Below are positions 5,009 through 46,551 of a stretch of DNA of 64,000 nt, in pieces. Position 1 is the first letter of the stretch. Every line of letters begins with the position of its first letter. The position numbers and the translations under genes were made by a program. Origin of the DNA: Planctomycetota bacterium (lineage in GTDB: Bacteria; Planctomycetota; PUPC01; DSUN01). The DNA lies in NCBI GenBank assembly GCA_035384565.1, contig DAOOIT010000017.1, forward strand, positions 24,579 through 88,578, read 5' to 3'. The notes under the pieces were generated by a model. That model searched no databases and was not told the DNA's origin. It saw only the letters and a program-made list of their open reading frames with translations.

Positions 5009-5201
5009 CCCGTCGCGTCGGTTCCGTGGGCGGGACCTCTGCGTCCCGCCTCGGCAGATTCGCGGGACGCGGAAGCCCAGCCCGCACGAAGCAGGGCGGG
5101 CAGGCGATGACACGCTCGTCGCCTGCCCGCGTCCATGCGCGGGCCCCCGCCAGGCCCCTTGCATTCCTGCCGCCGCGCGCTATGGTATCTGAGCCGAACC
5201 A

Positions 5202-5299
5202 GGGTCTGTACGGGAATCCACACGGGACTGCGTCGCCGCGCCTTGCATCCGCCCCGCTGACGCCGGCAACGCAGCCCGCGTGGATTTCCGCACAGACCC
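5202..5299. repeat. Family 1 element, short (internal-deletion) form
   Basis: Same terminal inverted repeats and same first 70 bp as the long form (opposite orientation), with the roughly 180-bp internal segment missing. Confidence 0.7.
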
Positions 5300-5324
5300 C
5301 AGAGTCATGCCCAGGAGGCGAACC

Positions 5325-6416: not shown

Positions 6417-6557
6417 CGGCGGGTTGCGGGCTCACCAGGGCCTGGCGATCGTGACCTGCCGACCGCCGGGAGCGCGGAACCGGTGCCGCGGCGCCGGCGA
6501 AACCACGCCATAACCGCCTATGTTGCAACACCTTACGCCCTCCCGCATTCCCCCCTT

Positions 6558-6671
6558 GCATACTTGCTCATCGCCCGGGTGAGCGAGTATGGCCGGAACC
6601 GCGAGAATCGCCAATCCTCGCCCTTCTGGCCTTGCTGTATCACTTTCCCCCTCACAGGGTTGATACAACAT
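6558..6671. repeat. Family 2 structured repeat, copy 1 (two hairpins sharing the CATACTTGCTCA arm)
   Basis: About 85% identical to 42598-42711, same orientation. Confidence 0.6.
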
Positions 6672-6937
6672 GGGCACGCTGCGCCCCCCAAGCACCCGGC
6701 TGCGCCCTCCCGAGGAACCACCAGGCCCGCCGAGCCAAGATCGCCAGACCATGAAGAACCGCGCTGTACCTCTCAAGTACCTGCTATATATACGCTTACA
6801 GCGAGCCATCCGTCTGGGGCAATGCGCACGGATTGACCGACCGGTCGCTTGACATCACTAATTTGCTGGGCTATACTATCCCGGAACTGTATTAGAAGCC
6901 GGTCCGTACTTTGGCCCGACTTTGGCGGGGCGGTGCC

Positions 6938-7716: not shown

Positions 7717-8325
7717 ATGAGAGCGCTGTGGGCGGCGGTGCTGATGGTGGGGCTGGCGTCGCTGGCGCGGGCCGAGGGCCCGCGCGAGTACAAGCAGGGC
7801 CTCGTCGCGCACTACTACCAGGACCCCCAGTTCTGGGGCGGCAACTGGCCCGACGGCGTGAGCGTGCCGAAGGTGAATCCGGCCGACTGGACGTTCACGA
7901 CCTACGCCTACAGCCGCGTGGAGCCGCTCATCAACCACCTGTTCATCCGCAACGGCTGGTTCAGCATCCGGTGGGTCGGCTACATCAACATCGAGCCCGG
8001 CGCCTCGGGCGAACACAAGGCCTCGGACCCTGTGAACGTGGGCTTCGAGCTGTGGGCCGACGACGGCGCGCGGCTCTTCATTGATGGCCAGAAGCTCATT
8101 GACGACTGGCGCGCCCGCTGGGAGAAGACGCCCCAGTCGCGCCGCAAGGCCGCCGCGACCCTCACCCCCGGCTACCACCGCATCGTCATCGAGTACTTCC
8201 AGGGCCAGAGCCTGGAGAAGGACGACCACGATCCAGCGAAGCTCTACTGGACCATCGGGGGCCGCAGGCAGATCGTGCCCGCCTCACATCTGTTCCACAC
8301 CGACGAGGACCTCGAGACCCGCTAG
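7717..8325 (+). CDS. Secreted PA14 domain protein
   Basis: Signal peptide plus a PA14-like core (FSIRWVGYI...DDGARLFIDG). Confidence 0.6.
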   Translation: MRALWAAVLMVGLASLARAEGPREYKQGLVAHYYQDPQFWGGNWPDGVSVPKVNPADWTFTTYAYSRVEPLINHLFIRNGWFSIRWVGYINIEPGASGEHKASDPVNVGFELWADDGARLFIDGQKLIDDWRARWEKTPQSRRKAAATLTPGYHRIVIEYFQGQSLEKDDHDPAKLYWTIGGRRQIVPASHLFHTDEDLETR

Positions 8326-8405
8326 GAGCCTGTCCAAGAATCCGCGTGGGACTGCGACGCCCGCGATTCTGGCCGCACGCAAGGCGCGTGGAGGAGAGAA
8401 GGGCC

Positions 8406-9215
8406 TCAGTCCGCCGGCAGGCGCGTCAGCAGGTCCAGGAACTCGGCCAGGTGGTCGTCGGTGCCGAAGTCCAGCACCGCCCGCTGCTTGCCGCAGCCGC
8501 CCCAGGCGCTGCCCACGAGGCGCCAGCGCAACACCGACGGGTCGGCCGCCCCGGGCACCAGCTCGGGAGGCTCCGGGTACCGCACATTCACCGTCATCAG
8601 CCCGTCCTCCCAGCGCGCGTCCTGGGCGGCGATCTGGGCGTGCGCCGTGTCGGCCCTGCCGAACGACTGCTCGAGATACCACTCGAAGAACAGCTCGGCC
8701 CGCCGCGGCGAGAGCCAGGGGTTGGGCTCAGGCCGCGACACGATGGCGTAGAGCAGCCGAGCGATGTAGTCGGGGTGTTTGGTGCCGTGCTTGCGCACGT
8801 AGGCCAGCGTCTCGTCGAGGTTGCGAAAGCCGTGCGACTGGGCGTTCCTGAGGCCCTGCGCCCCCTCGCCGCGCGCGATGTCGCGCAGCTTCTCCTCCGC
8901 CGCGGCGAACCGCGCGGCATTGGCCCTGAAGTACTGCTCCACCGCCCCCGCATAGTCCTTCTGCGCCAGCAGGGCGAGCAGCCCCTGGGTCTGCTCGACG
9001 ACGACCTTCACCTCGGGGGCCGTGTCGCCCTTGCCCGGCCCCACGATCAGCAGGGCCGCCAGGCCGGCCAGCACCAGAGGGAGAACGAGGATGTGGAACC
9101 ACGGGATGGGCCGATGGTGCAGCCCCGCGGCGTAGAGGTCGAAGCCACAGTCGAGACAGAACTGCCCCTTCCTGGGAAGGGCCGCATGGCACTTCGGGCA
9201 CTCCTTGCGGCTCAT
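8406..9215 (-). CDS. Zinc-ribbon membrane protein (hypothetical)
   Basis: CPKC...CLDC zinc ribbon followed by a TM helix. AGGAGG RBS before the ATG at 9215. Confidence 0.5.
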   Translation of the reverse strand: MSRKECPKCHAALPRKGQFCLDCGFDLYAAGLHHRPIPWFHILVLPLVLAGLAALLIVGPGKGDTAPEVKVVVEQTQGLLALLAQKDYAGAVEQYFRANAARFAAAEEKLRDIARGEGAQGLRNAQSHGFRNLDETLAYVRKHGTKHPDYIARLLYAIVSRPEPNPWLSPRRAELFFEWYLEQSFGRADTAHAQIAAQDARWEDGLMTVNVRYPEPPELVPGAADPSVLRWRLVGSAWGGCGKQRAVLDFGTDDHLAEFLDLLTRLPAD

Positions 9216-9363
9216 GGCTCCTCCTGTGTCGCGGTCCCGTGTGGATTCCCGCACTGCCCCTAAGATACCAAGCATCCCGTGGATGTCAACACCGGAACCC
9301 GGTCGTCGGAACCGCGCGGCGTCGGCCAGGGCCTCACGTGTACCCGCAAACGGGTGTGGGCCA

Positions 9364-9465
9364 TCTCTGGAGGTAGTTTCCGTTGCGGACTCTCATAGCG
9401 ACGAGCGTCCCGCTTGTCGAACGGACGAAGCGAGCCGCTTCCCCTATTCCGGGGATTCCCGCAAT
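9364..9465. repeat. Family 3 repeat, copy 1
   Basis: Shares TCCGTTGCGACTC...AGCGAC.AGCGTCC.GCTTGTCGAACGG...TTCCGGGGAT with 43052-43180. Confidence 0.5.
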
Positions 9466-9479
9466 AGAAGCTGCCTGCG

Positions 9480-9760
9480 ATTCCGGCCTGCACCCCCGGA
9501 AAGGGGTGTGGGCCGGAGTTGTAGGTGGCTGCTGGAGCTCCGAAGGAGCGAAATGGGATAGCCCAGGGCAACGCCCTGGGAACCAGACCGCCCCGCGGCA
9601 GCCCTGACAGGGCGGAATAGAGAGCTTCTATCTCGCCCCTTCAGGGCTGGACCCGTGAATCCCACTGAACCCAGGGCGTTGCCCTGGGCTATCCCATGCG
9701 AGCCCTTCAGGCTCCAGAGAGAACCACCCTGCCTACAATTCCGGCCCACACCCCCCGGGA
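9480..9760. repeat. About 280-bp nested near-perfect palindrome
   Basis: Outer arms GGGGTGTGGGCCGGAGTTGTAGG / CCTACAATTCCGGCCCACACCCC. Inner arms GGGATAGCCCAGGGCAACGCCCTGGG and its reverse complement. Confidence 0.65.
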
Positions 9761-9948: not shown

Positions 9949-10911
9949 GTGAGCATCGCAGACCGGATTCGAGCCGCGTGCCAGGCTGTTGCGCAGTGCG
10001 CAACGCGCGTGCGCATCCGCGAGGCGCGGATCGCGGACTACGCCGCTTCGCTCCCGCTCGACCAGGCGGCGCGCCCGCAACACGACCCGGCCACGCACTA
10101 TCTCGGCCGCGGCGGCGAGACGGTGGCCTTCTTCCTCACGCTCGACACCGTGAACTTCGGCTCGGGCTACTTCCCCCACCTGCGGAAGCGGCCCGGCCAC
10201 TCCGGCTACTTCACCGTCGCGGCGTCGCTCGCCGATGCCTTTCGCGCCCGAGGGCCATTCGCCGCGGAGGAGCTGGCCCGGCTCACCGCGCCCGATTGCG
10301 CGGCCCTCTTCGGCCAGGAGGACGCCGCCGAGCCGATCGGCGAGCTGATGCGCCTGTTCGCCCGGGCGCTGAACGACCTGGGGCGGTTCCTGCTCGAGCG
10401 CTTCGGCGGCGACTTCCTGCGGCTGGTCGCGGCGGCCGAAGGCTCGGCCGAGCGGCTCGCCGCCCTGCTCGCCGAGATGGCGTACTTCCAGGACGTCGAG
10501 CCGTACGGCGCCTGGCAGGTGCCGTTCTACAAGCGGGCGCAGCTTGCGGCGGCCGACCTCGCGATCGCCTTCGGCGGCGAGGGGCCGGGCCGCTTCGGCG
10601 ACCTCGACCGCCTGACGATCTTCGCCGACAACCTGGTGCCCCACGTGCTGCGCGTGGACGGCGTGCTGGCCTACGACGAGGGCCTGGCCGCGCGCATTGA
10701 TGCCGGCGAGCTTGTCCCCGCCGGCTCGCCCGAGGAGGTGGAGATTCGCGCCTGCGCCCTTCATGCGGTGGAGCGGATGGTGGGCGCGCTCCGCGCGGCG
10801 GGCCGCGGCGACGTGACGGCGATGGGGCTGGACTACGTGCTCTGGAACCGCGGGCAGCAGCCGCACTACAAGGCGCAGCCGCGGCACCGCACCCGCACGG
10901 TGTTCTACTAG
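9949..10911 (+). CDS. Queuosine-salvage family protein (DUF2419/Qng1-like), tentative
   Basis: TLDTVNFGSGYF motif region. GTG start at 9949 chosen because the upstream part of the ORF overlaps a 280-bp palindrome. Confidence 0.45.
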   Translation: MSIADRIRAACQAVAQCATRVRIREARIADYAASLPLDQAARPQHDPATHYLGRGGETVAFFLTLDTVNFGSGYFPHLRKRPGHSGYFTVAASLADAFRARGPFAAEELARLTAPDCAALFGQEDAAEPIGELMRLFARALNDLGRFLLERFGGDFLRLVAAAEGSAERLAALLAEMAYFQDVEPYGAWQVPFYKRAQLAAADLAIAFGGEGPGRFGDLDRLTIFADNLVPHVLRVDGVLAYDEGLAARIDAGELVPAGSPEEVEIRACALHAVERMVGALRAAGRGDVTAMGLDYVLWNRGQQPHYKAQPRHRTRTVFY

Positions 10912-11191
10912 GGTCTGTGCGGAAATCCACGCGGGCTGCGTTGCCGGCGCCAGCGGGGCGGATGCAAGGCGCGGCGACGCAGGCGATGCTACGGAGCGCA
11001 TCGCTGAGGAGCCGCAACGCGGCAGACACCCCGCTGCCGCCGCAACCCGAAGGGAAGCCGCGACCTATGGCCTCGAGCTGTGTCGCTCGTCGTCAACGAT
11101 GCTCTCCGCCGCATCGCCTCCTCCGCGCTCCTTGCTCGCGGCCAGAATTCGCGGCGTCGCAGTCCCGCGTGGATTCCCGCACAGACCCTAG
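10909..11191. repeat. MITE-like palindromic element, long form (family 1), with about 30-bp terminal inverted repeats
   Basis: Left end TAGGGTCTGTGCGGAAATCCACGCGGGCTGCG and right end CGCAGTCCCGCGTGGATTCCCGCACAGACCCTAG are reverse complements. Confidence 0.7.
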
Positions 11192-11991
11192 AATTGGCCC
11201 TTGTTATCCGCCTCGGGCTTCTGGGGCTTCTCGCGCTTCTCCATCCCCCTGCGGGCGTCTTCCTCGGCGGCGCGGCGGCGCATGTCGGCCTCTCTCTGGA
11301 GCGCGCGCAGGCGTTCCTCCGTCTCCATGCGCATGCGGTGTTCCATCGCCTCGCGCAGCCGGGCGGCGCCCTCGGGGTCCTGCTTGGCCAGTTCGGCGAT
11401 GAGCTGGCGATGAAGCATTCGGAGCACGAGGGCGCGGATCTCCGGCCCCATGTCGTCCTCGTCGAGAGCGATCTCGAGCGTGCCGCCGTTGCCGATGGGC
11501 AGGCTCACCTTGCCGAAGGGCTGGCCCCCCTTGCGCATCATCTTCTCGTGGTCCGCCTTCAGCAGGGCCTTCTCCTGCTTCGGCTTCAGGGCGGCAAACT
11601 CGCGCTCGCCCTCCTTGGCCACCTCCACCACCACGGCGCCGTCGCGGACGTCCATCTTCCCGCCGGCGAGGCGCGCGATCCACTGGAGCGCCTGGCCCAC
11701 CGGCATCTCGTTCACCCGCAGCGTGAGCGGCATCTGCTTGTCGAGGCCGGGATCCACGATCAGGTTCACCCCGATGAGCTGCTGCATGAAGTTCATCACG
11801 TCCACAATCGGCGTCTCGACGAAGTCGAAGGTCACCTTCTTCGTCTTGAGGAGTTCCTTGATCTTCTTGTCGGCCTCGGGTTCCTCGGCGCCGGCGGCGG
11901 GCTTCGGCTTCTTGTCGGGCGCAGCCGGCTCGCCGCAGAGGCCCGCACGCATCCACAAGGCGGCCAGCAACGCCACGAGAGTGAGTCTCAT
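11188..11991 (-). CDS. Secreted protein with secretin/TonB N-terminal (STN)-like domain and KE-rich coiled-coil tail
   Basis: Signal peptide MRLTLVALLAALW. Last gene of the ECF sigma operon. Confidence 0.5.
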   Translation of the reverse strand: MRLTLVALLAALWMRAGLCGEPAAPDKKPKPAAGAEEPEADKKIKELLKTKKVTFDFVETPIVDVMNFMQQLIGVNLIVDPGLDKQMPLTLRVNEMPVGQALQWIARLAGGKMDVRDGAVVVEVAKEGEREFAALKPKQEKALLKADHEKMMRKGGQPFGKVSLPIGNGGTLEIALDEDDMGPEIRALVLRMLHRQLIAELAKQDPEGAARLREAMEHRMRMETEERLRALQREADMRRRAAEEDARRGMEKREKPQKPEADNKGQF

Positions 11992-33161: not shown

Positions 33162-33341
33162 CGCCCACCGGGGTCGCCCTCGCCGTCTCACGCGGATTCT
33201 CGGATAGACTCCCAGGGCGGCCGCGCCGTGCACATGCCGATGTGGTGGAGCCCCTACAGGCCGGCATGTTCGCCGCAAGAGCTTCTGATCAGGCGCGCAG
33301 GGTGCGCGCGATGCGCGCGCGGGGCCTCATCTCGCCCCGCC

Positions 33342-41497: not shown

Positions 41498-42505
41498 ATG
41501 CCCCGCAAGAAGGCCACCTTCCTGGCGCCTGCCGCCAACGTCGAGCTGGTCTTCGGCCCCGAGCTCATCGCTCGGGCGCAAGCCCTCTGCGATGTCGCAG
41601 CAACCGCCCTCCCCCACAACGACCCCGCCACCGTCAAGGCCGCACTCCGCGGCGTCGAAATCGTCCTCTCCACCTGGGGCATGCCCAGGATGACCCCCGA
41701 CATCCTCGACGCCGCGCCCGACCTCCGCGTCATCCTCTACGGCGCCAGCTCCGTCAAAGGCTTCGTCACCGAAGCCGTCTACGACCGCGGCATCACCGTC
41801 ACCACCGCGGCCCTCGCCAACGCCACCGCCGTGGCCGAGTTCACCGTCGCACTCATCACCCTCTCGCTCAAGAACGCCTGGGCCCACCTGGCCGCGCTGC
41901 GCCGCGAAGGCCGCCGTGCCTGGCGCCGAGCCGACCTCGGCCCCTCCCGTGGCACCCATCGCGCCGTGGTCGGCATCATCGGTGCCAGCGCCACGGGGCG
42001 CGAAACAATCCGTCTTCTGAAAAGCTACACTTGCCCGATCCTCGTCGCAGACCCGTTCCTCACCCTCGACGAGGCCCGCACCCTCGGCGTTGAGAAGACC
42101 GAACTCGACGACCTCATCGCCCGCAGCGACGTGGTCTCCCTCCACGCCCCAAACCTCCCCCACCTCCGACACATGATTGGCGCCACGCAACTGCGGTGCA
42201 TGAGGGACGGCGCGGTCTTCATCAACACCGCGCGCGGCGCACTCGTGGATGAAGAGGCCCTCGTCGCCGAGCTCCGCACGGGCCGCCTCCTCGCCTGCCT
42301 CGATGTCACCGACCCCGAGCCGCCCGCCGAGGGCAGCCCGCTCTACTCCCTCCCCAACGTCATCCTCACCCCCCACCTCGCCGGCGCCACGGGCGCCGAC
42401 TGCCGACGCATGGGCGAGCTGTGCATCCAGGAACTCGAACGCTACCTTGCCGGCCTGCCGCCACTCCATCCCGTCACCCGCGAGCGGCTTCCCTTCACGA
42501 GCTAG
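41498..42505 (+). CDS. D-isomer-specific 2-hydroxyacid dehydrogenase family protein
   Basis: NAD-binding GxxGxxG and catalytic domain pattern. Confidence 0.85.
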   Translation: MPRKKATFLAPAANVELVFGPELIARAQALCDVAATALPHNDPATVKAALRGVEIVLSTWGMPRMTPDILDAAPDLRVILYGASSVKGFVTEAVYDRGITVTTAALANATAVAEFTVALITLSLKNAWAHLAALRREGRRAWRRADLGPSRGTHRAVVGIIGASATGRETIRLLKSYTCPILVADPFLTLDEARTLGVEKTELDDLIARSDVVSLHAPNLPHLRHMIGATQLRCMRDGAVFINTARGALVDEEALVAELRTGRLLACLDVTDPEPPAEGSPLYSLPNVILTPHLAGATGADCRRMGELCIQELERYLAGLPPLHPVTRERLPFTS

Positions 42506-42545
42506 GGTCTGTGCGGAGACCCCCGTGGGCTGCGCTGCGGGGCCA
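42503..42545. repeat. Family 1 element fragment (left arm) starting at a gene stop codon
   Basis: TAGGGTCTGTGCGGAGACCCCCGTGGGCTGCG. A further right-arm fragment lies at 9229-9256. Confidence 0.5.
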
Positions 42546-42597
42546 AAGGGGGCCCAACGTCCCGCAATGACTTACGATCCCCGGGCATGCCCCCTCC

Positions 42598-42711
42598 CAT
42601 ACTTGCTCATCCCGGAATTGAGCGCGAATGGCCGGAACCGCGAGAATCGTCAATCCTCGGCCATCTGCCCATACTTGCTCACCTGCCCCCTCTCAGGGTT
42701 GAGCAAGTATG
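42598..42711. repeat. Family 2 structured repeat, copy 2
   Basis: Perfect 12-bp stem CATACTTGCTCA/TGAGCAAGTATG around the loop CCTGCCCCCTCTCAGGGT. Confidence 0.6.
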
Positions 42712-43051
42712 AGCAGGCCGCTCGCGGGCACTCGCCAGGGCCTTCCCCACGAACCGCCAGGGCCGCAAGGAGCAGGAACGTCTGCACCCCGCACTAGGCC
42801 AACCGAGGCAAGCCCGCCCACCCCCGAGGCACTAGGCGCTCCCTCAGAACCCGCGTCGCCTGCGGCCAGTGGAAGCAGCATGCTCCAGAGACCACCCTCC
42901 CGAAGGTTCCAATACCCTCGGGAGGGTAACGGGAGGGGCGGGCGCTGGGGGGCGCACCCTCCCGAACGCATTGGAACGTTCGGGAGGGGGGGCTCGCTGG
43001 CCGATTCCAGGCGCAGTCTCCCCCCCAAGGACGGCATTCTCGGGCGTGGAC

Positions 43052-43180
43052 TATCTCTGTAGGCCGTCTCCGTTGCGACTCCCCGCAGCGACAAGCGTCC
43101 AGCTTGTCGAACGGCCAAGGGTAACCGCAAGCGGGACGCTCGCGGCTGCCTGGCAGGGGGCACCCTGTTCCGGGGATCTC
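43052..43180. repeat. Family 3 repeat, copy 2
   Basis: See copy 1. Confidence 0.5.
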
Positions 43181-43444: not shown

Positions 43445-44203
43445 ATGAAGGTCGTCGCAATCGCAAATCAGAAGGGCGGCGTGGGCAAGACCACTACCGC
43501 CATGAACCTCGCCGCCTGTGTCGCACTCTCGGGAGCGAGGACCCTCCTTGTAGATATAGACCCCCAGGGGAATGCCACCAGCGGGCTGGGGCATCTGCGG
43601 GCACGCAACGGCGGCGCCCACGATGTCCTCTTCGCGCCCGACAAGACACCCGCGGCTGTCAAAGCCACGGACGTCCCCAACCTCTCGCTCTGTCCCGCCA
43701 GCCGCCTCCTCGGCGGCGCCGAGACCGAGCTGGCCCATCACCCCGACCGGGTCACCCGCTTCCGCAAAGCAGTCGCAGCCATAAGTTCTGATTACGACTA
43801 TGTTTTCGTCGACTGCCCGCCGTCGCTAGGCCTCTTGCCCACCAACGCCCTGGCGGCCGCCGACGGCCTCCTAATCCCCATCCAGTGCGAGTACTACGCC
43901 ATGGAGGGGCTGGCGCAGATGCTCGAGCTCTTCCAGCATGTGCGCGACCACTACAACCCCAAGCTGCGTCTCGAGGGCATCCTCTTCACCATGTACCAGC
44001 CCGGCCTCCCGTACGCCGATGAAGTCGCCAACGAGGTGCGCTACCACTGTGGACAACATGTCTACGAGACCTCGATCCCTCGGGACACGCTGCTCAGTGA
44101 AGCGCCCTCGCACGGCAAGCCGATCATTTACTACGCTCCACGCTCGATCGGAGCCTGGAGCTACGTCGCACTGGCAAAGGAGATTCTCTCCGATGAAGAG
44201 TAG
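43445..44203 (+). CDS. parA: Chromosome partitioning ATPase ParA/Soj
   Basis: KGGVGKTT deviant Walker A. Confidence 0.95.
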
Positions 44204-45080
44204 CCATTTGGGCCGCGGCCTAGGCGCCCTCCTCGGCAACGCCGAGGAACTCCAGCCCGAACCTCAGCAGACCCTCGAAATCCCTGTCGCCAAGGTCAGA
44301 CCCAACCCCAACCAGCCGCGGCACGAATTCGACCAGGACTCCCTCGGCGAGCTCGTCGAGTCGGTCACACGCAACGGAGTGATCCAACCGATCATCGTGC
44401 GCGCACTGGAGGACGGCTACGAGCTCATTGCGGGCGAGCGCCGTTGGCGCGCCGCGCAACTGGCGGGCCTGGCCACCATCCCAGCCATCGTGCGGCCAGC
44501 GAGCGAGAACGAGAGCCTCGAGCTGGCGCTCATCGAGAACATCCAGCGCCAGGACCTCAACCCCATGGAGCAGGCCAGGGCGTACAAGAACCTCATCGAA
44601 CGCTTCAGCCTGACGCAGGAGGAGGCTGCCGCGCGCCTCGGCAAGAAACGCTCCTCGGTGGCTAACATCTTGCGACTATTGGACTTACCAACCGACATCC
44701 AGGACGCTGTTTCACGTGGAACATTGTCCATGGGGCATGCGCGCGCCCTTCTAGCCCTGCCCGACAGAGCCGAGCAAGTGCGCCTCGCCGCGCGCATCCA
44801 GCGCGACGACCTCTCCGTGCGCCAGACTGAGCAGATCGTGAATGACCGACTCAAGCGGGCACGCTCGCACCAATCTACAACCGAGCCCAAGCCTGCCTAC
44901 ATCACGGACCTCGAGGGCAAACTCCGCGAAGCATTGGCCACCCGTGTCACCATCCTGCCCCACAAGCACGACGAGGGGGGACGAATCGTCGTGGACTTCT
45001 TCACGAAGGATGACTTCCAGCGCCTCCTGGAGCGCCTGCTGCCGAGGGCGGGCCGTCCGGAGGAGGCGACCGCGACTTAG
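44193..45080 (+). CDS. parB: Chromosome partitioning protein ParB/Spo0J
   Basis: GERRWRAA ParB box and HTH. 11-nt overlap with parA. Confidence 0.9.
44708..44723. promoter_or_regulatory. Second parS-like site (identical 16-mer) inside parB
   Basis: Identical TGTTTCACGTGGAACA. Confidence 0.55.
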
Positions 45081-45960
45081 AGAGGGGTGGGGGCGACGAG
45101 TGGCTAGTTCCGTAGAGGTGCCGAGTCATGATAGTTCCCGGCGAGTAGGTTACGGGTGTGGCAGAAAGCGAGGTGGCGGCACAGGGGGCAGGTTGGGTAC
45201 AGAGGTAGTCTGGGGCTAGGGAGCAGTTCCTGGGCTGATGGGGGGGCATGGTGGGTGATGCATGAACGCCGGTAGTGTGGTGTAGAACCTCTGGTGCGAT
45301 GAAATCTCGTGGAACCGCGTTGGGTGGGCGGATCGAAATAGGGTCTTGGTGCGAAGGTGGGTGGAGAAGGAACACGAATTGAGTAAAGAGGTGTGAAGCG
45401 AGAGCATAGCGTAGCAAGATGGCTATGGTGAGACGAGTGAAGCAACATCGGAAAGTGCAAGGGTTAGTAAAGCGGAAAGCCACTCTTGGGCGTCGAGGGA
45501 GCATCGTGTAGTAAGGGACAGCGGTATGCTTGGCTCGTGCGGGACTGTGGCATCCTCGGGTGGGTGGCTTGGCTGGGAGATGCCGGGTCAGGTGCGCTAT
45601 GCAAGATGCTTGGGGCTTGGGGGTACCTCGGTCCGTGGGAACGCGGGGTGATGACTGCGCCGCAGCTTTTGTTAGTGGAGCGGCGGGCGATGATGCGGAC
45701 GGTCGCGCAGGCAGCCCCAACCTCCCGCAGGTTCGCAAGCCGCGGGAGGTTCCCGACCCGTCGCCCTTTGTTCCGCGAAGGCGAGGGGCCTCTGAACGGC
45801 CAAGAGGCTCGCCCCACGCAGGGCGTAGGGACGAAAAGAGGGAGCAGAGCGTAAGGACGAGAGGGCGTTGCGCTAAGTGTATGACGGCTGTAGAATCAGA
45901 CGGGTGTGCGCGCGGTGTGGCTGGCGGCCGGGGGCGGGTGGACGATGTAGGAGAGCGCAG
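45081..45960. other. 880-bp non-coding, C-depleted, G-tract-rich, lower-GC island
   Basis: No credible ORF on either strand. Strong strand asymmetry with many GGG/GGGG tracts. Confidence 0.5.
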
Positions 45961-46491
45961 ATGAGGACGGGGTCATGGGTCATGGCGGTGTGCCTGGTGG
46001 GTGCCGCTGCCTGTGAGAGGGGGGAGGGGCCGAAGGCGCGACCGAGTGAGGGGGCGGCGACGAAGCCGAAGGCCGTGGGGCCGCCGGCGCTGCGGATTGC
46101 GCAGTGGTACGGGACGGAGCCTTTGACTCTGGAGGGTCTCAAGGGGAAGGTGGTGTTGTTGGACTTCTGGAACACGATGTGTGGGCCGTGCCGGAAGCTG
46201 ATGCCGCATCTCGATGAGCTGTATCGGAGGCATAAGGCGGAGGGCCTGGTGGTGATTGGGGTGACGGAGGATGAGAAGAACGATCTCGAGGAGTACGTGA
46301 AGGGGACTCCGGTGGGGTATCCGCTGGCTATAGATGAGATGAAGGGAGGGTCGGGGGTGACATTCGACGCGTACAAGATCGTTGCGGTGCCGACGGTGGT
46401 GCTGATCGGCCGCGATGGTGCCGTGGTGTGGCGAGGGACGGGCGAGAAGCTGACGGATGCGATGGTGCTTGCGGAATTGGCGAAGAAGTGA
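45961..46491 (+). CDS. TlpA/redoxin-family thiol-disulfide oxidoreductase lipoprotein
   Basis: Lipobox LVGAAAC. WNTMCGPC thioredoxin motif. AGGAG RBS. Confidence 0.8.
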   Translation: MRTGSWVMAVCLVGAAACERGEGPKARPSEGAATKPKAVGPPALRIAQWYGTEPLTLEGLKGKVVLLDFWNTMCGPCRKLMPHLDELYRRHKAEGLVVIGVTEDEKNDLEEYVKGTPVGYPLAIDEMKGGSGVTFDAYKIVAVPTVVLIGRDGAVVWRGTGEKLTDAMVLAELAKK

Positions 46492-46551
46492 GTGTTCCGG
46501 CGCCGCGATCGGAGTATCATGAGGAGGGAGGCAAGCGGCCGGGCAGGGGGA

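What the first reader, a model, noticed from the sequence alone, without database searches (positions are those of the whole stretch)
10909..11191. MITE-like element exactly filling a convergent intergenic gap, with both flanking genes using its terminal CTAG as stop codon
This is a 283-bp non-coding element bounded by about 30-bp terminal inverted repeats (TAGGGTCTGTGCGGAAATCCACGCGGGCTGCG ... CGCAGTCCCGCGTGGATTCCCGCACAGACCCTAG). It contains an internal hairpin (GCGATGCTACGGAGCGCATCGC). Its two ends coincide with the TAG stop of the plus-strand DUF2419 gene (10909-10911) and the TAG stop of the minus-strand STN-domain gene (11188-11190). A second family member at 42503 also begins at the TAG stop of the 2-hydroxyacid dehydrogenase gene. 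Either the element targets TAG/CTAG at gene 3' ends, or insertion has re-defined the gene termini.
Basis: seen in the sequence. Interest (0 to 1): 0.62.

Follow-up and report, generated by a model that had tools for sequence, protein, structure and literature searches.

The report
CTAG-targeting MITE sitting on stop codons
This is a small non-coding jumping-DNA element (a MITE) in an uncultured planctomycete; it inserts into the rare sequence CTAG, often a gene's stop codon, and rebuilds that stop codon so the protein is unchanged, which makes it a tidy but essentially ordinary case.

Summary
Window 10911-11188 is a 278-bp non-coding element with 28-nt terminal inverted repeats. It is flanked by TA/TA inside CTAG/CTAG, and those two CTAGs supply the TAG stops of the Q_salvage gene (+) and a convergent 267-aa gene (-).

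It belongs to a multi-copy MITE family. There are 8 ends in the window and 16 independent two-ended copies in related metagenome contigs, with copies 93-96% identical to the window copy.

The flanks read C-TA-[G...C]-TA-G, so the target is CTAG with a TA duplication. A clean filled/empty pair proves insertion into the stop codon of a patatin-like gene without changing the protein. Relatives lacking the element show that the 267-aa gene already ended TTC-TAG.

CTAG is 5-9 fold depleted in this 70% GC genome. About a quarter of the free non-coding CTAGs are stop codons, and roughly half of the element ends sit on stops.

No transposase partner was found. IS630/Tc1-mariner-type and IS5/IS427-type mobilisation remain equally open.

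Verdict: a new member of a known kind, of modest interest.

The parts
10911..11188 (.). MITE core, 278 bp (canonical length of the family). Termini are GGGTCTGTGCGG...CCGCACAGACCC.
   Evidence: It is 93-96% identical to copies at unrelated loci. It folds far better than shuffled sequence.
10909..10910 (.). Left copy of the duplicated target TA. With the element's first G (10911) it forms the TAG stop of the Q_salvage gene.
   Evidence: duplication logic from the empty site.
11189..11190 (.). Right copy of the duplicated target TA. With the element's last C (11188) it forms CTA, which is the TAG stop of the minus-strand 267-aa gene.
10911..10940 (+). Left terminal inverted repeat (presumed transposase-binding end).
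11159..11188 (-). Right terminal inverted repeat.
10009..10911 (+). Queuosine-salvage gene (Q_salvage, PF10343). Its start may instead be at 9949. Its stop is the TAG at 10909-10911.
   Evidence: profile 6-285 of 285 aligned through the last residue; gene calls.
11188..11991 (-). 267-aa lineage-specific gene with no Pfam family, downstream of ECF sigma and anti-sigma-like genes. Its stop is the CTA at 11188-11190.
5202..5299 (.). 98-bp internally deleted copy of the same family, flanked by CA/CA instead of TA/TA. It lies just upstream of an esterase-like gene.
   Evidence: 75 nt, 97% match to 10908-10982.
8325..8396 (+). Truncated subfamily-B copy (end GGAGCCTGTCCAAGAATCC). Its CTAG at 8322-8325 is the stop of the PA14-domain gene. 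It nearly fills the gap to the convergent 269-aa gene.
9224..9260 (-). Solo end of the family, flanked by TTAG on its own strand, directly upstream of the 269-aa gene's ribosome-binding site.
33176..33212 (-). Degenerate solo end (subfamily-B-like) in a convergent intergenic region.
42505..42541 (+). Solo or diverged end. Its CTAG at 42502-42505 is the stop of the 2-hydroxyacid dehydrogenase gene.

Best explanation
The feature is a non-autonomous DNA transposon (a MITE) of an uncultured Planctomycetota bacterium.

Shown:
- The family has a canonical length of 278 bp and about 28-nt terminal inverted repeats that begin with G and end with C.
- It inserts into the TA of the palindrome 5'-CTAG-3' and duplicates the TA.
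- Because the ends are G...C, a full CTAG is rebuilt on each side. A gene that ended ...C-TAG keeps a TAG stop at exactly the same codon, with the third base now supplied by the element. The protein is unchanged.
- CTAG is 5-9 fold depleted in this 70% GC genome, and many of the surviving non-coding CTAGs are stop codons.

Inferred:
- Insertions into coding CTAGs are lost to selection. Together with the scarcity of CTAG this explains why about half of the element ends sit on gene stops.
- At the finding's locus the element was present before the window species and its 90%-identical relative split. The relative has since deleted the interior, leaving a 34-bp hairpin.
- Mobilisation is in trans by a DDE transposase that makes TA duplications, either IS630/Tc1-mariner type or IS5/IS427 type. 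This enzyme was not found.
- Any role of the long hairpin as a terminator or RNA-stability element is speculation.
For: Real TIR, above chance.

Family size: 8 ends in the window; 35 further loci in metagenome contigs; 53 unique ends and 16 unique two-ended copies.

Size classes: 28, 59, 71, 98, about 185, 268, 278, 279, 296 and 323 bp. Copies of the 278- and 296-bp classes are 93-96% identical to the window copy at unrelated loci.

Flanks among the 16 copies: 15 have TA/TA. The outer left base is C in 14 of 16. The outer right base is G in 16 of 16.

Filled/empty pair at the patatin-like gene:
- Filled: ...CCG CTC TA[G..323 bp..C]TA GCC.
- Empty in the window species: ...CCG CTC TAG CCC.
- Empty in a third species: ...CCG CTC TGA CCG.

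Gene termini are native:
- The Q_salvage profile aligns to the last residue.
- The 267-aa gene's orthologue ends ...GQF-TGA in L009.
- It ends ...TQF TTC-TAG followed by unrelated sequence in L010.
- It ends ...GQF TTC-TAG-CAG with no element in L056.

CTAG scarcity: 19 observed in the window against 94 expected (Markov) or 178 (base composition).

Census over about 400 kb: element ends are 20 on gene stops, 23 elsewhere and 0 in coding sequence. Free CTAGs are 20 on stops, 62 other non-coding and 14 coding. Fisher p = 0.016.

Only this one site is shared between the two sister species. All other copies are species-specific among the fetched loci.

Literature:
- IS630 inserts at TA within CTAG (reference list of PMC2170065).
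- IS870 and ISMt1 use the CTAG target as a stop codon (PMC13630536).
- IS5/IS427 elements make 2-bp duplications (PMC3281130).
Against: No autonomous partner or transposase with matching ends was found. Nothing turned up in the window, in about 400 kb of related contigs, in reference genomes or in viral contigs.

A TA duplication cannot be formally separated from a CTAG duplication, because the element ends in G...C. The preference for TA rests on two discordant pairs (TTAG...CTAG and ATAG...CTAG) and on variation at the outer base only.

Two copies have mutated or odd flanks: CA/CA in the window copy at 5202 and TG/CA in L030.

No unoccupied CTAG shared by two convergent genes was seen among 147 CTAGs. 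The simple single-insertion history for this particular double-stop locus is therefore not directly supported.

The census loci were chosen because they carry elements, and gene calls were a crude ORF-plus-GC3 rule, so the enrichment figure is rough.
Confidence: 0.85

Rival explanations
1. History of this particular locus. The element did not insert once into a CTAG shared by two overlapping convergent stop codons. Instead, two separate copies sat on the stop codons of the 267-aa gene and of Q_salvage. Recombination or deletion between them then brought the two genes together around one hybrid copy.
For: - No free CTAG is shared by two convergent genes among 147 CTAGs, yet two elements have a gene stop at both ends (window 10911-11188, and L024 7797-7867).
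- Q_salvage is not the neighbour of this gene in more distant relatives.
- Synteny breaks immediately beyond Q_salvage.
- A 59-bp chimera with a subfamily-B left end and a subfamily-A right end (L031) shows that copies do recombine or collapse.
Against: - The window copy is a canonical 278-bp member with no visible junction.
- Numbers are small: 0 of 20 free stop CTAGs against 2 of 9 stop-associated elements.
- Short tail-to-tail overlaps on CTAG are a known gene arrangement (own knowledge).
Confidence: 0.4
2. The family is an IS5-group derivative, like MITEPsy1. It duplicates all four bases of CTAG, so the element proper would be GGTCTG...CAGACC.
For: - MITEPsy1 and IS5-group elements duplicate CTAG (PMC3189936; PMC9241763).
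- The ends GGTCTG and GAGCCTGTCC resemble IS5-family termini. MITEPsy1 starts GGAAGGTCTG. The wider resemblance is from memory only.
Against: - Two two-ended copies have unequal 4-mers: TTAG...CTAG in L017 and ATAG...CTAG in L024.
- Among about 50 ends the outer base varies in 5 and the inner G never varies, apart from one degenerate hit, L021. This fits the G being part of the element.
Confidence: 0.15
3. It is a REP/REPIN-type palindromic repeat spread by a RAYT (IS200/IS605-like tyrosine transposase), not a TIR/DDE MITE.
For: - REP termini (GTAG-tagged) are known to supply TAG stops to flanking ORFs, and REPs occur in Planctomycetes (PMC3733652).
- The 34-bp remnant in the sister species has the size and shape of a REP.
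Against: - The element is 278 bp with 28-nt TIRs. It has CTAG, not a GTAG or CGTC tag, at both ends.
- The filled site has an extra TA relative to the empty site, which fits a staggered-cut duplication.
- The short forms are nested deletion derivatives of the long one.
- No RAYT gene was noticed among the called genes of the loci. This was not searched specifically.
Confidence: 0.04
4. The insertion re-defined the gene ends. On this view the flanking proteins were truncated or extended, and now stop on element-derived TAGs.
For: Only the coincidence of both stops with the element ends.
Against: - The Q_salvage profile is matched to its last position at the last residue.
- ...GQF* is conserved in relatives without the element; a more distant relative ends ...TQF*.
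- The patatin-like protein is identical in length in the filled and empty states.
- The 2-Hacid_dh profile also reaches its end.
Confidence: 0.02
5. The hairpin has been co-opted as a bidirectional terminator or RNA-stability element between convergent genes. This would be in addition to its being a MITE, and would explain why even the deleted form keeps a 12-bp stem.
For: - Very stable fold on both strands.
- The sister species retains a 12-bp stem with a 10-nt loop exactly between the two stops.
- Bacterial MITEs such as Correia/NEMIS are co-transcribed and processed (PMC2229807; PMC3733652).
Against: - No terminator-like hairpin with a T-run, and no promoter consensus.
- No Rfam family.
- Compensatory changes are concentrated in the TIRs, and the covariation term is only -0.56 kcal/mol.
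- Many copies lie upstream of genes or in other contexts.
Confidence: 0.15

Closest known systems
IS630 and IS630-derived MITEs (for example RUP of Streptococcus pneumoniae, mobilised by IS630-Spn1)
   Same: TA duplication. IS630 itself prefers the TA inside 5'-CTAG-3'. These are short non-coding elements with TIRs, spread in trans.
   Different: No IS630-type transposase with matching ends was found, and there is no sequence similarity to any annotated plasmid IS. The host is a 70% GC planctomycete, where CTAG is rare, so insertions pile up on stop codons.
IS870 (Agrobacterium vitis) and ISMt1
   Same: Both insert into CTAG, and the junction TAG is used as a stop codon.
   Different: In those ISs the TAG terminates the element's own transposase ORF. 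Here it terminates the host gene that was hit, and the element has no ORF.
IS5-family elements: the IS427 group (2-bp duplications), and MITEPsy1 and the IS5 group (4-bp CTAG duplication)
   Same: CTAG or TA-centred palindromic targets. Their ends begin GG.../GAG... with a CTG core.
   Different: A 4-bp duplication is disfavoured by two discordant copies. The IS427 type cannot be excluded. No partner was found.
GTAG-tagged REPs (Di Nocera et al. 2013)
   Same: Their termini often supply the TAG stop codon of flanking ORFs. They are small palindromic intergenic repeats and are also present in the PVC superphylum.
   Different: REPs are 20-40 bp, carry a GTAG or CGTC tag at one end, are associated with RAYT enzymes and make no target duplication. 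This element is 278 bp with long TIRs and TA flanks.
Correia/NEMIS elements of Neisseria
   Same: MITEs often found next to genes, able to form a long stem-loop when transcribed. That they are also TA-flanked is from own knowledge.
   Different: Correia elements carry promoter and IHF motifs and have proven RNase III processing. None of this was shown here, and no consensus promoter or terminator was found.

Membership tests
Bacterial MITE | Terminal inverted repeats of about 15-30 bp | tested here: met
   28 nt, 96% complementary. The same ends occur on all copies.
Bacterial MITE | Target-site duplication flanking each copy | tested here: met
   TA/TA in 15 of 16 two-ended copies. The filled site has one extra TA relative to the empty site.
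Bacterial MITE | Small, non-coding and multi-copy at unrelated loci | tested here: met
   59-323 bp, plus a 28-bp remnant in the sister species. There are 53 unique ends and 16 two-ended copies in different gene contexts, and copies of the two main size classes are 93-96% identical to the window copy. Coding capacity was judged only from size and palindromic make-up.
Bacterial MITE | Presence/absence polymorphism between related genomes | tested here: met
   Filled in species R, empty in the window species and in a third species. Only one site is shared between the sister species.
Bacterial MITE | A cognate autonomous IS with the same TIRs | tested here: inconclusive
   None in the window, in about 400 kb of related contigs, in reference genomes or in viral contigs. 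The complete genomes could not be scanned.
IS630/Tc1-mariner-derived element | TA duplication, with the CTAG preference described for IS630 | tested here: met
.
IS630/Tc1-mariner-derived element | Mobilised by an IS630-family DDE transposase whose IS shares the TIRs | not testable with these tools
   No partner was found, and whole-genome access to the MAGs is lacking.
IS5/IS427-group-derived element | 2-bp duplication and IS427-like ends | tested here: inconclusive
   A 2-bp duplication is compatible. The similarity of the ends rests on memory and on MITEPsy1 only.
IS5-group MITE (MITEPsy1-like) | Identical 4-bp CTAG direct repeats | tested here: not met
   L017 has TTAG...CTAG and L024_1702 has ATAG...CTAG. 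The inner G never varies. This is a weak test, with only two informative copies.
REP/REPIN (RAYT-associated) | 20-40 bp palindrome with a GTAG or CGTC tag, no target duplication, RAYT gene in the genome | tested here: not met
   278 bp with 28-nt TIRs, CTAG at both ends and a TA duplication. A RAYT gene was not specifically searched for.
Known RNA family (Rfam) | Match to a covariance model | tested here: not met
   No hit at gathering threshold in the window for this region. No hit at E <= 1 for 10850-11250.
Intrinsic (rho-independent) terminator | GC-rich hairpin followed by a T-run | tested here: not met
   0 terminator-like sites in 10700-11400.

The most novel reading that the evidence does not exclude
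The family may be more than a passive CTAG-seeker. On this reading it is a stop-codon-homing MITE. Its CTAG specificity and its G...C termini together act as a safe-harbour strategy. In a CTAG-depleted, GC-rich genome this directs insertions onto gene stop codons without changing proteins. The hairpins left behind, even 34-bp remnants, would be kept by selection as insulators or terminators between convergent genes. The roughly 3-4 fold excess of stop-codon targets over other free non-coding CTAGs, and the retention of a perfect mini-hairpin between the two stops in the sister species, do not exclude this.
Probability: 0.12. Interest if true: 0.55.

Novelty: new member of a known kind. Interest (0 to 1): 0.3.

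Why it matters
It gives a clean, base-by-base example of how a transposon can land inside a stop codon and leave the gene product untouched. It also shows how strong avoidance of one tetranucleotide, CTAG, funnels a mobile element to gene ends in a GC-rich genome.

For annotators, it explains why many intergenic gaps in these planctomycete MAGs begin and end exactly at TAG stops. It also flags a repeat family, one of several, that will fragment assemblies and may drive rearrangements.

It does not reveal a new kind of system.

Tried and rejected
- **Reference genomes.** Two scans (GTDB representatives) with a specific and a degenerate TIR pattern gave 0 hits. The lineage is not represented there.
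- **Viral contigs.** One scan, 0 hits.
- **Annotated plasmids.** A blastn of the element found no match.
- **Autonomous partner.** Weak-TIR pairs 0.6-3.5 kb apart gave only one plausible pair, window 8324+/9263-, 939 bp. It brackets a 269-aa zinc-ribbon/membrane-type protein, not a transposase, so it was rejected as an IS. An all-against-all search for IS-like multi-copy segments found none.
- **Empty-site attempt at L017.** This is the copy with TTAG/CTAG flanks. The orthologous intergenic regions carry different repeats in each species and cannot be aligned beyond a conserved promoter.
- **Apparent empty site for L028.** It turned out to be another ~120-bp repeat that ends in CTAG.
- **VSP-repair explanation for CCAG/CTGG flanks.** Considered and dropped, because the observed changes do not fit CTWGG to CCWGG at both ends.
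- **Covariation as evidence for a functional RNA.** Uninformative. The double changes sit mostly in the TIRs and come from only two subfamily-B sequences.
- **First fuzzy-regex scan.** It timed out and was replaced by nhmmer.
Full report
**What is there**

The window is 70% GC. At 10908-11191 the sequence reads CTAG-GGTCTGTGCGGAAATCCACGCGGG ... CCCGCGTGGATTCCCGCACAGACC-CTAG. The arms 10908-10935 and 11164-11191 are 28 nt long and 96% complementary. The 25-nt core occurs four times in the window and never in 100 shuffles. The + ORF ends with TAG at 10909-10911 and the - ORF ends with CTA at 11188-11190.

The + gene is a queuosine-salvage protein. The Pfam Q_salvage profile aligns from position 6 to 285 of 285, ending on the protein's last residue.

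It is part of a very stable overall fold, with RNA MFE of -179 and -198 kcal/mol on the two strands and z-scores of -10 and -12.

**A repeat family, not a one-off**

A profile of the ends finds eight ends in the window: 5201+/5302-, 8322+, 9264-, 10908+/11191-, 33215- and 42502+.

- The 5202-5299 copy is a 98-bp internal-deletion form. Over 75 nt it matches the left part of the main element at 97%.
- The 8322 copy belongs to a second subfamily with a different end (GGAGCCTGTCCAAGAATCC). It is truncated after about 72 bp.

The source is an uncultured Planctomycetota bacterium seen in several assemblies and one NCBI MAG.

An exact-pattern scan of JGI metagenome contigs returned 35 more loci. Pooling everything gives 53 unique ends and 16 unique two-ended copies. 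Lengths range from 59 to 323 bp, with 278 bp as the canonical class. A roughly 185-bp copy (L030) and a 28-bp remnant in the sister species extend the series.

Copies of the 278- and 296-bp classes at unrelated loci are 93-96% identical to the window copy. The 323-bp class has its centre replaced by a different nested hairpin repeat. Subfamily B shares the interior at 80-84% but has different ends.

**Target and duplication**

In the 16 two-ended copies the flanks read C-TA-[G...C]-TA-G. Fifteen have TA on both sides. The outer left base is C in 14 and the outer right base is G in all 16. The target is therefore CTAG.

Because the element begins with G and ends with C, a TA duplication and a CTAG duplication give the same sequence at a CTAG target. 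Two copies at imperfect targets are informative: TTAG...CTAG in L017 and ATAG...CTAG in L024. Among about 50 ends the outer base varies in five, while the inner G never does apart from one degenerate hit (L021). This favours a 2-bp TA duplication, with G and C belonging to the element, but only weakly.

**Direct proof of insertion into a stop codon**

A patatin-like gene in the sister species (R) is followed by a 323-bp copy. The window species and a third species have only 16 bp before the next gene. The alignment reads:

- R (filled): ...TAC CCG CTC TA[GGGTCTGTG...CACAGACCC]TA GCC AGC GGAGG
- Window species (empty): ...TAC CCG CTC TAG CCC GC GGAGG
- Third species (empty): ...TAC CCG CTC TGA CCG GC GGAGG

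So the element entered the TA of a CTAG whose TAG was the stop codon, and it duplicated the TA. The stop was rebuilt from the target's TA plus the element's own first G. The protein end (...YPL*) is unchanged.

Among the fetched loci, only the Q_salvage site is shared between the two sister species. All other copies are species-specific. This fits transposition after their split.

**The finding's own locus**

In the sister species (90% protein identity) the same two convergent genes are separated by CTAGGGCCTGTGTGGATTCCCGCACAGACCCTAG. This is the first 12 and last 22 bases of the unit, forming a 12-bp stem with a 10-nt loop. Both genes still stop on the two CTAGs. The simplest reading is that the element was present in the common ancestor and later lost its interior by deletion at a GTG microhomology.

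More distant relatives lack the element, and the orthologue of the 267-aa gene ends as follows:

- ...GQF-TGA in L009
- ...TQF TTC-TAG followed by unrelated sequence in L010
- ...GQF TTC-TAG-CAG in L056

So the CTAG stop predates the element, and the C-terminus was not altered. In those relatives the downstream neighbour is not Q_salvage.

**Why both ends are stops here**

Removing the element and one TA restores ...TTC TAC TAG AAT TGG.... In that sequence the two convergent genes would share one CTAG, with stop codons overlapping by TA. That is possible, but no unoccupied CTAG shared in this way was seen among 147 CTAGs.

A second double-stop case exists. It is a 71-bp copy between a sigma-54-type regulator gene and a Nif3-like gene (L024). 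A 59-bp chimera of the two subfamilies (L031) shows that copies recombine or collapse.

An alternative history is therefore realistic: two copies on two stop codons, joined by recombination or deletion. I give it about 0.4.

**Why stop codons**

CTAG occurs 19 times in the window, against 94 expected from a Markov model and 178 from base composition. Seven of the 19 are gene stops, and four of those seven are element ends. TAG is a common stop here, 18 of 44 in a crude gene map.

The census over about 400 kb gives:

| CTAG class | Element ends | Free CTAGs |
|---|---|---|
| On a gene stop | 20 | 20 |
| Other non-coding | 23 | 62 |
| Coding | 0 | 14 |

The odds ratio is 2.7 per end (p = 0.016). 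Counting insertion events instead, 9 of the 16 two-ended copies have at least one end on a gene stop, giving an odds ratio of 4.0 (p = 0.016).

Target specificity, the scarcity of CTAG and the loss of coding insertions explain most of the pattern. The residual excess fits weaker selection against insertions at 3' ends than at promoters. The census is biased and the gene calls are crude.

**Mechanism and family**

IS630 inserts at the TA of CTAG (Tenzen and Ohtsubo 1991, cited in PMC2170065). IS870 and ISMt1 use the CTAG target as a stop codon for their own ORF (PMC13630536). However, IS5/IS427 elements also make 2-bp duplications (PMC3281130), and IS5-group elements and MITEPsy1 duplicate CTAG.

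No autonomous partner was found. Searches covered the window, the related contigs, reference genomes, viral contigs and plasmids. The only IS-sized inverted pair, 8324/9263, encloses a zinc-ribbon membrane-type protein and not a transposase.

I therefore commit to a TIR-bearing MITE moved in trans by a TA-duplicating DDE transposase, and leave IS630 versus IS427 open.

A REP/RAYT origin is unlikely given the length, the TIRs and the duplication. REP termini are, however, already known to supply TAG stops (PMC3733652).

**Function**

No Rfam family matches. No sigma-70 promoter or hairpin-plus-T-run terminator is present.

The consensus fold is a TIR stem with two internal hairpins. Twelve of 102 predicted pairs show double changes. 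Seven of those twelve lie in the TIRs and separate the two subfamilies, and the covariation term is -0.56 kcal/mol. That is what matched transposase-binding ends would give, and it is not evidence for a selected RNA. A terminator or insulator role remains speculation.

**Verdict**

This is a previously undescribed member of a well-known kind of element. It shows neatly how an insertion can be neutral to a stop codon. Interest is modest.

Noticed in passing
window 9536-9714: A symmetric unit of about 180 bp. The arm 9536-9580(-) matches the Rfam family Acido-Lenti-1 (RF01687) at 44.1 bits, above the gathering score of 37. The mirror arm 9670-9714(+) matches at 24.7 bits. The two arms include a perfect 28-nt inverted repeat (9553-9580 / 9670-9697). 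In this planctomycete the 'sRNA' motif therefore looks like the arms of a palindromic repeat element.
   Followed up: partly
window 42890-42990; also L010 5840-5950, L018, L026, and nested inside the 323-bp MITE variants of L017, L023 and L043: A second hairpin-repeat family, CCCTCCCGAAGGTTCCAATACCTTCGGGAGGG. It usually occurs in inverted pairs and sometimes in tandem arrays, and it is found inserted inside copies of the MITE.
   Followed up: no
window 6525-6682 and 42564-42721; also L044 and L047 3480-3600: A third repeat family built on CCCATACTTGCTCA...TGAGCAAGTATGG. The two window copies are 74% identical over 158 nt. One of them follows directly after the solo MITE end at 42502.
   Followed up: no
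window 43445-46500: parA-like (43445-44203) and parB (43938-45080) genes are followed by about 1.4 kb without a convincing gene. That stretch has GC of 0.60-0.66 and a strongly positive GC skew (+0.3 to +0.4). Seven of the window's 19 CTAGs cluster at 42.8-45.2 kb. This could be an origin-proximal or foreign segment.
   Followed up: partly
window 9351-9438 and 43041-43128: An 88-nt direct repeat (75% identity) lies in two long non-coding regions, each of which also carries a MITE end nearby.
   Followed up: no
L027 2250-2365, L028 1-119, L042 11730-11803: A repeat of about 120 bp, ending ...TTGACGAACTTGGGCTAG, is present at three unrelated places. One copy has the MITE inserted in its terminal CTAG.
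   Followed up: partly
window 5200-5301 and L030 1741-1930: Two copies have non-TA flanks: CA...CA for the 98-bp window copy, and TG...CA for L030. In each case both flanks have changed, although the window copy is otherwise 97% identical to the main element. It is unclear whether this reflects non-canonical targets, mutation pressure on CTAG, or conversion between the arms.
   Followed up: partly
L017 5560-5600, L047 3910-3945, L050 1375-1410: A conserved promoter-like sequence, GTTGACTCCCC(N8-9)ACTCATATAGAATG, lies upstream of a HEAT-repeat gene in three species. Upstream of it, each species carries a different set of small repeats.
   Followed up: no
window 8322-9264: A subfamily-B end (8322+) and a family end (9264-) lie in inverted orientation 939 bp apart. 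They bracket one 269-aa gene (zinc-ribbon motif plus a hydrophobic helix, no transposase domain). The flanks are C-TA...TA-A. This is probably two independent remnants, but a gene captured between two ends is not excluded.
   Followed up: partly
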